NCBI GenBank assembly: GCA_951406725.2
Contig: OX597814.1
Coordinates: forward strand, 39,370,001-39,434,000
Length of the DNA stretch: 64,000 nucleotides
Reading direction: 5' to 3'
Origin: Octopus vulgaris
Taxonomy: Eukaryota
Position 1 is the first letter of the stretch; every line of letters begins with the position of its first letter. The notes under the pieces were generated by a model that did no database searches, was not told where the DNA came from, and worked only from the letters and a program-made list of their open reading frames with translations. A program made the translations under genes and the position numbers. Of this stretch, positions 4,687-45,513 are shown piece after piece.

Positions 4687-4849
4687 GGTGCGGGGTTTCA
4701 GAAAAAAAACAACAGATGTATTAGTATAAAGCTCGGGAAGTGAAAAAGTGTTTAACGTTTCGAGCCTACGCTCTTCCACAGAAAGGAACACAGGAAGAAA
4801 CAAGGAAAGAAAATTAAGAATGTGTAGTGGCTAGCGATCTATCGTGGCG

Positions 4850-8223: not shown

Positions 8224-8525
8224 ACTTTTTGGCCACACGCTCACTTTCTATCCCCATTCTGCTTTCTTCCAATCTACATTCTCACGTTTCCAACTCCCAA
8301 ATCATACAACATATCGTTATTAATTTGCCACTTTCAATTTCTCAAATCCTTTCTCATATCCTGGCCAAATTTTCTTTCTCATGAGTTTTAATTTCTATCA
8401 TTAATTAATTTAGTCTATTCTTCTTTCGCTCTATCTTCCTTTATATATATTTCCCTGTCTTTTCACACTTTTTACACACACACACACACAAATATATACA
8501 TGCATGTATATATATTGCTTATGCA

Positions 8526-8580
<55 letters not shown>

Positions 8581-8793
8581 TCAAAATATGACCGTGTGTG
8601 TACCGTTGGCGATTTTTCCCTCCGTCTTCCCTTCCTTGGAACTTTCCTTTTCCTATGATTCTGACGAAGAGCTCCGCTCGAAACGTTAAATCATTCTTCT
8701 TTCTTTCCTTTCCTGACCGTCCAATAACACTATACTTTTTCCACGTCCTCGCATTGTTGTGTTTTCTCTTTGTGTTTTCATGTTTAGATTAAC
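8581..8793 (+). mobile_element. Short (TA)n-embedded element, Penelope pLTR-like
   Basis: Flanked by (TA)n on both sides; pyrimidine-rich body; contains a hammerhead motif. Confidence 0.65.
8655..8694 (+). ncRNA. Minimal type-I hammerhead ribozyme motif (Penelope-associated variant)
   Basis: ATGATT-CTGACGA-A-GAGC-TCC-GCTC-GAAACGTTA-AATCAT: 6-bp stem I, CUGANGA box, 4-bp stem II, GAAA box, palindromic AACGTT stem III region. Confidence 0.75.
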
Positions 8794-8930
8794 TATATAT
8801 ATATACATATTAAGGTGCGAAATTGTTATGATTTGGGTCTAATAACAAATGGAGGATGAACATATTCACGCTTTGTGAGTGATTTTTCCATGTTCCTTTT
8901 ATCGTTTTCCCGTGCACTTTTAATTTCTAT

Positions 8931-9042
8931 TAGAAAAAGTGCTAGGCTTACAAAGGATACGTCCTGGGGTCGATTTGTTCGATTAAAGGTGGTGCTCCAG
9001 TATGGCCGCAGTCAAATGACTGAAACAAATAAAAGAATAAAA
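8931..9042 (+). mobile_element. SINE family C 3' fragment
   Basis: Matches the tail of 7192-7584, including CAGTCAAATGACTG. Confidence 0.85.
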
Positions 9043-9062
9043 TCATACATACATATGAATAT

Positions 9063-12758: not shown

Positions 12759-13275
12759 TCCCTGCGCACTCAGCCACACATGCCTTTAAATGCATGCACA
12801 CATGTATGTGTATTCACATGTCTTAAACTCTGTGTAGTGACCTCCGGTAATCCAGCTACTTATAGGCCTGGTGTATTGACCAGTTCGGGAAATGGAGATG
12901 CTGGTGGAGGAACTTCTATGTCGATCGGTTGTCCACGCTCAGCTCGCTATTAAAACGGTGATGTTGAGAGAGCTCAGCAGCAACAGGTTGTCTAGGAAGG
13001 AACGATTCAGCCCAGGGCGCGAATGCAGCAGGCAAAAGATTTGTGTCCAGCAGCAGTGGGGTCGCGCCTGTGAGAAAACTTATCAGCTGCCAATATGCAC
13101 AGACATACACTGTTGATATACATGTATGTTTACATACAAACATGTATAGACTGATATATACGTGCATGTATTTGCGTGTGTTTGTGTATATGTGTGGGCG
13201 CGCGCGCGTCTATGCGGGGGTATGAGTATGAATCTGCTTGGAAAGATGAAAAATATATACGTATACATGTAAATT

Positions 13276-44991: not shown

Positions 44992-44997
<6 letters not shown>

Positions 44998-45119
44998 TAT
45001 ATAGAAGGAGCTTCTACAGGACTAGTACTGTTTCATTCAAGAGAAATCTTCAGGAACCTGAAGATTTCTCTTGAATGAAACAGTACTAGTCCTGTAGAAG
45101 CTCCTTCTATATAATAAAT
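44992..45119. repeat. Perfect palindrome, 63-bp arms with 2-nt spacer
   Basis: 44992-45054 is the exact reverse complement of 45057-45119. Confidence 0.95.
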
Positions 45120-45244: not shown

Positions 45245-45247
<3 letters not shown>

Positions 45248-45437
45248 AGATCGGTAGCCACTACACACATTTTTTTCTCTCTCCTTGTTTCCCTCTTAGA
45301 TTCCTTCTGTGTTCCTTTCTGTGGACGACCGTGGGCTCGAAACGTAAAAGACTTTTACAATTCCCGAGCGTTGTACCAATACATCTGTTTGTTTTCCACA
45401 TCACCTGTCTTCGTCTTTTGTATTTTTCGTGAATTTT

Positions 45438-45440
<3 letters not shown>
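45245..45440 (+). mobile_element. Short (TA)n-embedded element, Penelope pLTR-like, with hammerhead-like core
   Basis: Homologous to 4687-4850; CTTT-CTGTGGAC-GACC-GTGG-GCTC-GAAACGTA-AAAG. Confidence 0.65.

Positions 45441-45513
<73 letters not shown>

What the first reader, a model, noticed from the sequence alone, without database searches (positions are those of the whole stretch)
8655..8694. Essentially intact minimal hammerhead ribozyme
Seen: ATGATT (8655-60) pairs with AATCAT (8689-94); CTGACGA plus one extra A; GAGC/GCTC stem with TCC loop; GAAACGTTA containing the palindrome AACGTT. Established: this architecture fits small Penelope-associated hammerhead variants whose stem III is too short for a monomer and which can act as dimers. 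Inference: this is the best candidate for an active self-cleaving RNA here, cutting near 8687-8688.
Basis: partly seen in the sequence, partly recalled or inferred. Interest (0 to 1): 0.75.

Follow-up and report, generated by a model that had tools for sequence, protein, structure and literature searches.

The report
Decayed hammerhead in Penelope retrotransposon end
This is one of thousands of short end-pieces left by a Penelope-type jumping gene; the self-cutting RNA motif is really in the sequence, but its tidy-looking helix comes from two mutations that no other copy examined carries together and that are predicted to lock it in a non-cutting fold, so it is likely an ordinary inactive relic.

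Summary
The letters are there, and the Penelope link is now shown. The motif lies in a 215-bp solo end repeat (pLTR, 8579-8793) of an RT + GIY-YIG element; 7,820 genomic copies match its core exactly. "Essentially intact" does not hold. The family's stem I is 4 bp (GTTT/AAAY) and starts at 8688, a register backed by a G-C/C-G swap against a sister family. T8658A breaks the family stem, and the shifted helix stacks on a hairpin predicted to bury U4-G8 (pairing probability 0.94-1.0). No tandem partner was found nearby. Most solo copies run uncut across the site from a likely capped start. More interesting is the family: about 73% of copies carry U4C, and a 15,336-copy sister family carries A6U while position 7 varies freely. 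The scan noted such pLTR hammerheads before on other DNA. Verdict: decayed new member of a known kind; low interest.

The parts
8579..8793 (+). Solo pLTR copy (about 215 bp) of a Penelope-like retroelement, U4/AAAT subfamily, between (TA)n tracts; 11 of 200 compared positions (5.5%) differ from the subfamily majority
8579..8584 (+). 5' start of the copy (ATTCAA), at the edge of the family's start cluster; likely the element's transcription start, in an initiator-like TCATTC (motif name recalled)
   Evidence: TSS is inference
8655..8660 (+). 5' strand of stem I; family ATGTTT, here ATGATT (T8658A, 0 of 123 other copies; seen once more in L207)
8661..8668 (+). Core C3-A9 (CTGACGA), canonical, plus the extra A between positions 9 and 10.1 typical of PLE hammerheads
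   Evidence: PMC4209133
8669..8679 (+). Stem II GAGC/GCTC with TCC loop, G10.1-C11.1 closing pair
   Evidence: 98.9% of cells paired
8680..8687 (+). G12-A14, palindrome ACGT (A15.1 8683 to U16.1 8686) and U17 (8687); family-register scissile bond 8687/8688
8688..8694 (+).
8786..8807 (+). 3' junction (A)GATTAAC followed by (TA)n; in full-length elements the sequence continues TTTATATACCG into the 5' UTR and ORF
8525..8578 (.). (TA)n target tract upstream of the copy

Best explanation
The 40-mer is the minimal hammerhead motif of a solo end repeat (pLTR) of a Penelope-like retrotransposon, inserted in a (TA)n tract, and this copy is likely a catalytically inactive relic. Shown: family membership, copy number, pLTR-ORF-pLTR structure, the stem I register, and the rarity of the two substitutions. 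Inferred origin: the element's RNA likely starts at the A equivalent to 8579 and carries the hammerhead about 110 nt downstream. The element's RT would start internally about 105 nt past the cut site on a nicked (TA)n target and copy the uncut RNA to its 5' end, leaving a 215-bp copy. Inferred decay: T8658A then broke the third pair of the family's 4-bp stem I and, with C8693A, created a 6-bp helix one base out of register. That helix is predicted to extend a hairpin in which UGACG (U4-G8) pairs with CGUUA, so the core cannot assemble. In source elements the motif would act, if at all, as a weak dimeric or protein-assisted ribozyme.
For: Repeat: 3,954 first-look candidates, top 40 at 92-100%; 7,820 exact core matches. 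PLE link: copies lie downstream of RT(YIDD)-GIY-YIG ORF ends and upstream of ORF starts. 5 of 10 regions picked for a 5' pLTR have pLTRs at both ends, 5.3-6.5 kb apart. Rarity: 40-mer 1 in the genome; both substitutions together only in the window copy among 124; 0.3-1.0 such doubles expected by neutral decay. Fold: monomer -11.9 kcal/mol with U4-G8 paired at 0.94-1.0, also in 121-501 nt context; the family-register dimer lies 23.7 kcal/mol above two monomers, against 7.1-11.3 for three intact family copies. Uncut template: 25 of 29 copies chosen by their 3' part start upstream of C3, one more (L153) has an internal deletion, 1 starts within 4 nt of the site. A Poseidon PLE hammerhead needed protein to cut and was dispensable for insertion (PMC11167929).
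Against: The core C3-A9, stem II and GAAACGU of this copy are all canonical. Nearest-neighbour energies ignore tertiary contacts and Mg2+. The inactive hairpin is also partly populated in intact family copies (0.4-0.85), so it is not unique to this copy. The covariation rests on one pair and essentially one event between two families. PLE promoters are internal (PMC8557442), so a copy that begins at the start site could still be transcribed. No cleavage was measured.
Confidence: 0.85

Rival explanations
1. This copy is an active self-cleaving RNA: the two substitutions rebuilt a 6-bp stem I, and the RNA cuts as a dimer or with protein help near 8687-8689.
For: Canonical core and stem II. The shifted-register dimer is 10.5 kcal/mol above two monomers, similar to intact copies. 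The family register would cut at 8687/8688.
Against: The shifted register leaves either a non-palindromic A-CGU-U stem III or an extra base at the cut site; none of the families examined uses it. The core is predicted to be buried. No partner copy in the window or 10 kb upstream; the nearest listed exact-core copies are about 236 kb away on the other strand and 2.9 Mb away. U17 is allowed by the NUH rule but is not among the preferred triplets (PMC4832220). One such double mutant is what neutral decay predicts.
Confidence: 0.08
2. The motif in this family is no longer a working ribozyme even in source elements. It persists as a structural or protein-binding signal in the PLE RNA, and every copy, including this one, is non-cutting.
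For: 73 of the first 100 listed family cores have U4C, as do both pLTRs of most full-length copies. 96 of the first 100 sister cores have A6U. U4C considerably lowers activity in vitro and A6C gives under 0.1 per min (PMC3088659). Most solo copies span the site uncut. Core mutants did not affect insertion in vitro (PMC11167929).
Against: In the sister family position 7 takes all four bases (A25, C21, G13, U37 of 96) while C3, G5, G8, A9 and GAAA are shared by both families, and position 17 was G in 1 of 100. That is the pattern of a maintained catalytic fold, though the search pattern itself fixed those neighbours. U4C keeps enough activity for viroid infectivity. This view is compatible with the best explanation as far as this locus goes.
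Confidence: 0.3
3. The repeat is an independent non-autonomous retrozyme or SINE that replicates through tandem or circular RNA.
For: Thousands of short, protein-free copies of near-uniform length.
Against: The same sequence is the direct terminal repeat of RT-EN elements. No head-to-tail tandem arrays in the close pairs checked (L066-L069). Copy ends do not match the cut site.
Confidence: 0.04

Closest known systems
Minimal type I hammerheads in pLTRs of metazoan Penelope-like elements (Cervera and de la Pena 2014, PMC4209133; read parts 1-2 of 4 of the text, no supplements)
   Same: CUGANGA core, extra base between 9 and 10.1, G10.1-C11.1, short stem I (4 bp), palindromic 15.2-16.2, position in the pLTR, mostly single dispersed copies.
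   Different: Stem II is 4 bp rather than the 7-8 bp of the Schistosoma families. H17 is U in 88 of 100 family copies. In this copy stem I is broken in the family register. Family-wide U4C and A6U are not in the parts I read.
Neptune/Nematis-type EN+ PLEs (Craig et al. 2021, PMC8557442; 12 passages seen)
   Same: DKG motif, RT with YIDD, CX2-5CxxC linker (CSRSRCNTC), C-terminal GIY-YIG with CCHH, pLTRs with a hammerhead, microsatellite targeting.
   Different: Clade not tested by a tree. All full-length copies seen have stops or frameshifts. They carry a CA-rich 3' region of 1-3 kb.
Poseidon PAc element of Anolis (Frangieh et al. 2024, PMC11167929; read parts 1-2 of 4)
   Same: Copies span the hammerhead uncut; a fixed 3' end downstream of the hammerhead fits internal RT initiation; AT-rich targets.
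   Different: Here the hammerhead lies upstream of the ORF rather than over the start codon. Protein assistance is untested here.
Small PLE hammerhead variants that cleave as dimers (Lunse et al. 2017; not held, seen only as a reference and through the review PMC6765202, passages)
   Same: Very short palindromic stem III that implies a dimer.
   Different: Their variants and rates could not be compared.

Membership tests
PLE minimal hammerhead | Core CUGANGA ... GAAA | tested here: met
   CTGACGA 8661-8667, GAAA 8680-8683
PLE minimal hammerhead | Extra base between 9 and 10.1; stem II closed by G10.1-C11.1 | tested here: met
PLE minimal hammerhead | Palindrome from 15.1 to 16.1 followed by H17 | tested here: met
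PLE minimal hammerhead | Stem I of about 4-5 bp starting right after H17 | tested here: not met
   This copy: 2 pairs, mismatch, 1 wobble. Family copies meet it: 27-29 of 29 at each of 4 pairs
PLE minimal hammerhead | Located in a PLE pLTR | tested here: met
PLE minimal hammerhead | Second hammerhead on the same RNA for a dimer | tested here: not met
   No other family copy in the window or 10 kb upstream. One same-strand sister-family copy lies 11.9 kb upstream (L035) with poor cross-pairing by eye
PLE minimal hammerhead | Site-specific self-cleavage | not testable with these tools
   needs bench assay
EN+ Penelope-like element (parent family) | Single ORF with RT and C-terminal GIY-YIG, flanked by direct pLTRs | tested here: met
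   (5 of 10 regions); Pfam RVT_1 E=1.4e-5, RVT_1 0.0016 and GIY-YIG 0.025, all below curated cut-offs; motifs read by eye
Neptune/Nematis clades | CX2-5CxxC linker between RT and EN | tested here: met
   CSRSRCNTC in L149, L150, L145
Neptune/Nematis clades | Placement in the RT tree | not tested
   no reference PLE proteins held
Non-LTR retrozyme | Head-to-tail tandem units each with a hammerhead | tested here: not met
   solo copy; four close pairs checked were not tandem units; definition from bioRxiv 10.64898/2026.07.22.740005, part 1 of 5
Rfam hammerhead families | Match at gathering score | tested here: not met

The most novel reading that the evidence does not exclude
The two hammerhead-bearing Penelope-type families sampled here, with over 20,000 exact-core copies between them, amplified after fixing substitutions at 'invariant' core positions (U4C in about three quarters of 7,820 copies, A6U in about 96% of 15,336) while keeping a free position 7, a non-G position 17 and a covarying stem I. 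They would be deliberately damped or protein-dependent hammerheads in the 5' leader of a capped PLE RNA, and the solo copies would be complete cDNAs of that uncut leader, which map the element's transcription start and RT initiation site.
Probability: 0.35. Interest if true: 0.5.

Novelty: new member of a known kind. Interest (0 to 1): 0.2.

Why it matters
For this locus, little: it is one decayed copy among thousands, and it shows how a motif can look more perfect after mutation than its working ancestor. For the family, it bears on the open question of what PLE hammerheads do. Lineages with U4C and A6U cores spread to tens of thousands of copies, and solo copies run uncut across the site. 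Both point to cutting being weak, conditional or dispensable, and they supply natural variants for a direct test.

Tried and rejected
Rfam at gathering score and at E up to 10: no hammerhead family. AACGTT as stem III: rejected because it uses A14 and U17. Retrozyme tandem: four close pairs were an inverted pair (L069), a 6.4-kb local duplication (L066) and two pairs of separate insertions about 1 kb apart (L067, L068). CpG decay of a U4C ancestor as the source of this copy's U4: rejected, since it belongs to a subfamily that differs from the U4C subfamily at 12 majority positions. Selection on the core within the family: not seen; 2 of those 12 differences fall in the 35-nt motif, one in the core. 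Host gene: 78 window ORFs of 70 aa or more gave no Pfam match at cut-off, and no PLE ORF remnant was found in the window or 10 kb upstream. Expression: no RNA holder listed on record. Contigs of 3 guessed-RNA runs and 1 unlabelled run covered only repeat parts, not the unique flanks; this is no evidence either way, and whether the copy lies inside a transcript stays open. Lunse et al. 2017 is not held; one search fetched an unrelated paper by a wrong id. Literature searches: Octopus + Penelope + hammerhead, 5 papers, none on this family by listing; hammerhead + U4C, 1 paper; hammerhead + A6U, 0. Supplements of PMC4209133 and PMC8557442 were not read and may list these families or core variants.

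Full report
Observation. The letters are as described. In hammerhead numbering C3-A9 is 8661-8667, an extra A sits at 8668, stem II is 8669-8672 with 8676-8679, G12-A14 is 8680-8682 and A15.1 is 8683. Rfam returned no hammerhead family at gathering score or among 21 matches up to E=10.

Context. A 196-base query gave 3,954 first-look candidates in the 2.8-Gb own genome, the best 40 at 92-100% identity. The copies share about 215 bases (window 8579-8793) and usually sit in (TA)n. Exact matches: 2,230 for the 30-base core with U4 and U17, 7,820 with positions 4 and 17 free, 7,008 for a 26-base piece of the 3' part; reversed-pattern controls gave 0.

What the repeat is. Following rare 5' extensions led to GIY-YIG and RT coding sequence upstream of the repeat. 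Following the ORF to its start found the repeat again in front of it: 14 of 30 loci had a match in their upstream part, 13 in direct orientation, with the sequence continuing GGATTAAC-TTTATATACCG into a leader and ORF (output cut, 7 of the 15 loci I asked for were seen in full or large part). Of 10 regions fetched because they had a 5' copy, 5 have direct copies at both ends, 5.3-6.5 kb apart. The protein has DKG, YIDD, a CSRSRCNTC linker and a GIY-YIG/CCHH domain by eye. Pfam support is weak and below cut-off (RVT_1 E=1.4e-5; RVT_1 0.0016 and GIY-YIG 0.025). By the definitions in PMC8557442 (passages) this is a canonical EN+ Penelope-like element of Neptune/Nematis type; I built no tree. The window holds a solo pLTR with no ORF remnant and no second family copy in the window or the 10 kb before it.

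Which stem I is real. In 30 core-selected copies taken in genome order, the 5' hexamer is ATGTTT in 24 and ATGATT only in the window copy. With U16.1 at 8686, U17 at 8687 and stem I starting at 8688, the first four pairs form in 29, 27, 28 and 28 of 29 other copies, and in 25, 21, 24 and 23 of 25 copies chosen by their 3' part (5 of those 30 loci did not match the motif pattern and were not counted). A sister family (15,336 exact matches) has the same stem II and GAAACGT, A or U at 17, and C-G where this family has G-C or G-U at pair 4 (15 of 20). The signal rests on one pair and related rows, so it fixes the register without proving selection. Among 123 other near-complete copies, some chosen for likeness to the window, T8658A occurs in 0 and C8693A in 6; T8658A alone turned up once more in L207. 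The window copy differs from its subfamily majority at 5.5% of positions against a mean of 4.5%, and neutral decay predicts 0.3-1.0 such doubles.

Predicted fold. Pairing probability for U4-G8 is 0.94-1.0, and G5 and G8 stay at 0.97-0.99 in 121, 217 and 501 nt of context; in three intact family copies with U17 it is 0.2-0.85. The double-hammerhead fold in the family register lies 23.7 kcal/mol above two monomers, against 7.1-11.3 for those three copies and 1.3-6.7 for two sister copies. Against my reading, a dimer using the 6-bp shifted stem with one extra base at the cut site lies only 10.5 above. I know of no natural example with that insertion (recalled, not searched), and these energies ignore tertiary contacts.

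How the copies arise. Of 59 solo or truncated copies, 42 start 65-84 bases upstream of C3 and 55 start upstream of C3 (30 of the 59 were selected for an intact core). Among the 29 chosen by the 3' part, 25 start upstream of C3, one has an internal deletion, one starts in loop II, one 4 bases past the cut site and one 25 bases past it. So the template was mostly uncut. Of copies that reach the A of ATTCAA, 818 have a non-element base before it and 663 have the element's C preceded by A, G or T; of the first 100 of these 56 continue with the element's T. About three quarters therefore stop within two bases. A G precedes the A in 15 of the first 100, against 3 of 100 one position further up, and all 4 such loci examined have it between (TA)n and the element. 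This fits a capped transcription start copied by RT, a lead taken from earlier scan notes e1-9854223 and e1-8159683; microhomology with (TA)n could also sharpen the edge. It agrees with PMC11167929 (parts 1-2 of 4): internal RT initiation, a hammerhead that cuts only with protein, and insertion unaffected by core mutants.

The family's cores. Of the first 100 listed family matches 73 have U4C, 25 U4 and 2 A4; position 17 is U in 88, A 6, C 5, G 1 (counted by hand). Of the first 100 sister matches 96 have A6U; among them position 7 is A 25, C 21, G 13, U 37, and position 17 is A 76, U 23, G 1 over all 100 (counted by hand). PMC3088659 (passages) reports U4C as much slower in vitro yet sufficient for a viroid, and A6C below 0.1 per min. 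A search for hammerhead + A6U found 0 papers and for U4C 1; unread supplements and Lunse et al. 2017 may cover these variants. This family-level pattern, not the window copy, is the part worth a bench test.

Comparison and verdict. The motif matches the minimal PLE hammerhead of PMC4209133 in core, extra base, palindrome and position, but this copy fails the stem I and partner criteria. The scan already holds 782 notes with the words hammerhead, Penelope, pLTR, minimal, ribozyme; none matched this sequence. Expression of this locus is unknown. It is a decayed new member of a known kind: 0.85 that it is an inactive relic, 0.08 that it cuts. Interest 0.2.

Noticed in passing
window 4745-4789 (-), C3 at 4781: Sister-family pLTR hammerhead remnant with core CTGTGGA (A6U) and a 3-bp stem I; the only window hit of my minimal-hammerhead descriptor.
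   Followed up: partly
window about 45245-45441 (+), C3 at 45319: Second sister-family pLTR copy with A6U core and a mismatch in stem II.
   Followed up: partly
window 44992-45119: Perfect inverted repeat with 63-base arms and a 2-base centre; it explains the mirror CTGAAGA...GAAA matches at 45031-45080. Possibly a foldback junction or assembly feature.
   Followed up: no
window 12829-13114 (+): Metazoan SRP RNA match, 82.7 bits, full model length; gene or SRP-derived copy not resolved.
   Followed up: no
G000, 15,336 matches (L182-L201): Sister family with A6U in 96 of 100 cores while position 7 takes all four bases; its coding partner was not traced.
   Followed up: partly
L142, L144, L145, L148-L150: Most full-length elements seen carry U4C in one or both pLTRs; all have stops or frameshifts, and a CA-rich 3' region of 1-3 kb.
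   Followed up: partly
L069:2613-2916: Two family copies in inverted orientation, cores 144 bases apart, the inverted junction described for PLE insertions.
   Followed up: no
L031:1800-3031 (-): Another PLE family with a GIY-YIG end and a more divergent hammerhead-like motif with palindrome ACCGGT, next to a family copy (read by eye).
   Followed up: no
window 8930-9060: A different high-copy short repeat directly downstream, heavily covered by contigs in all four runs laid.
   Followed up: no
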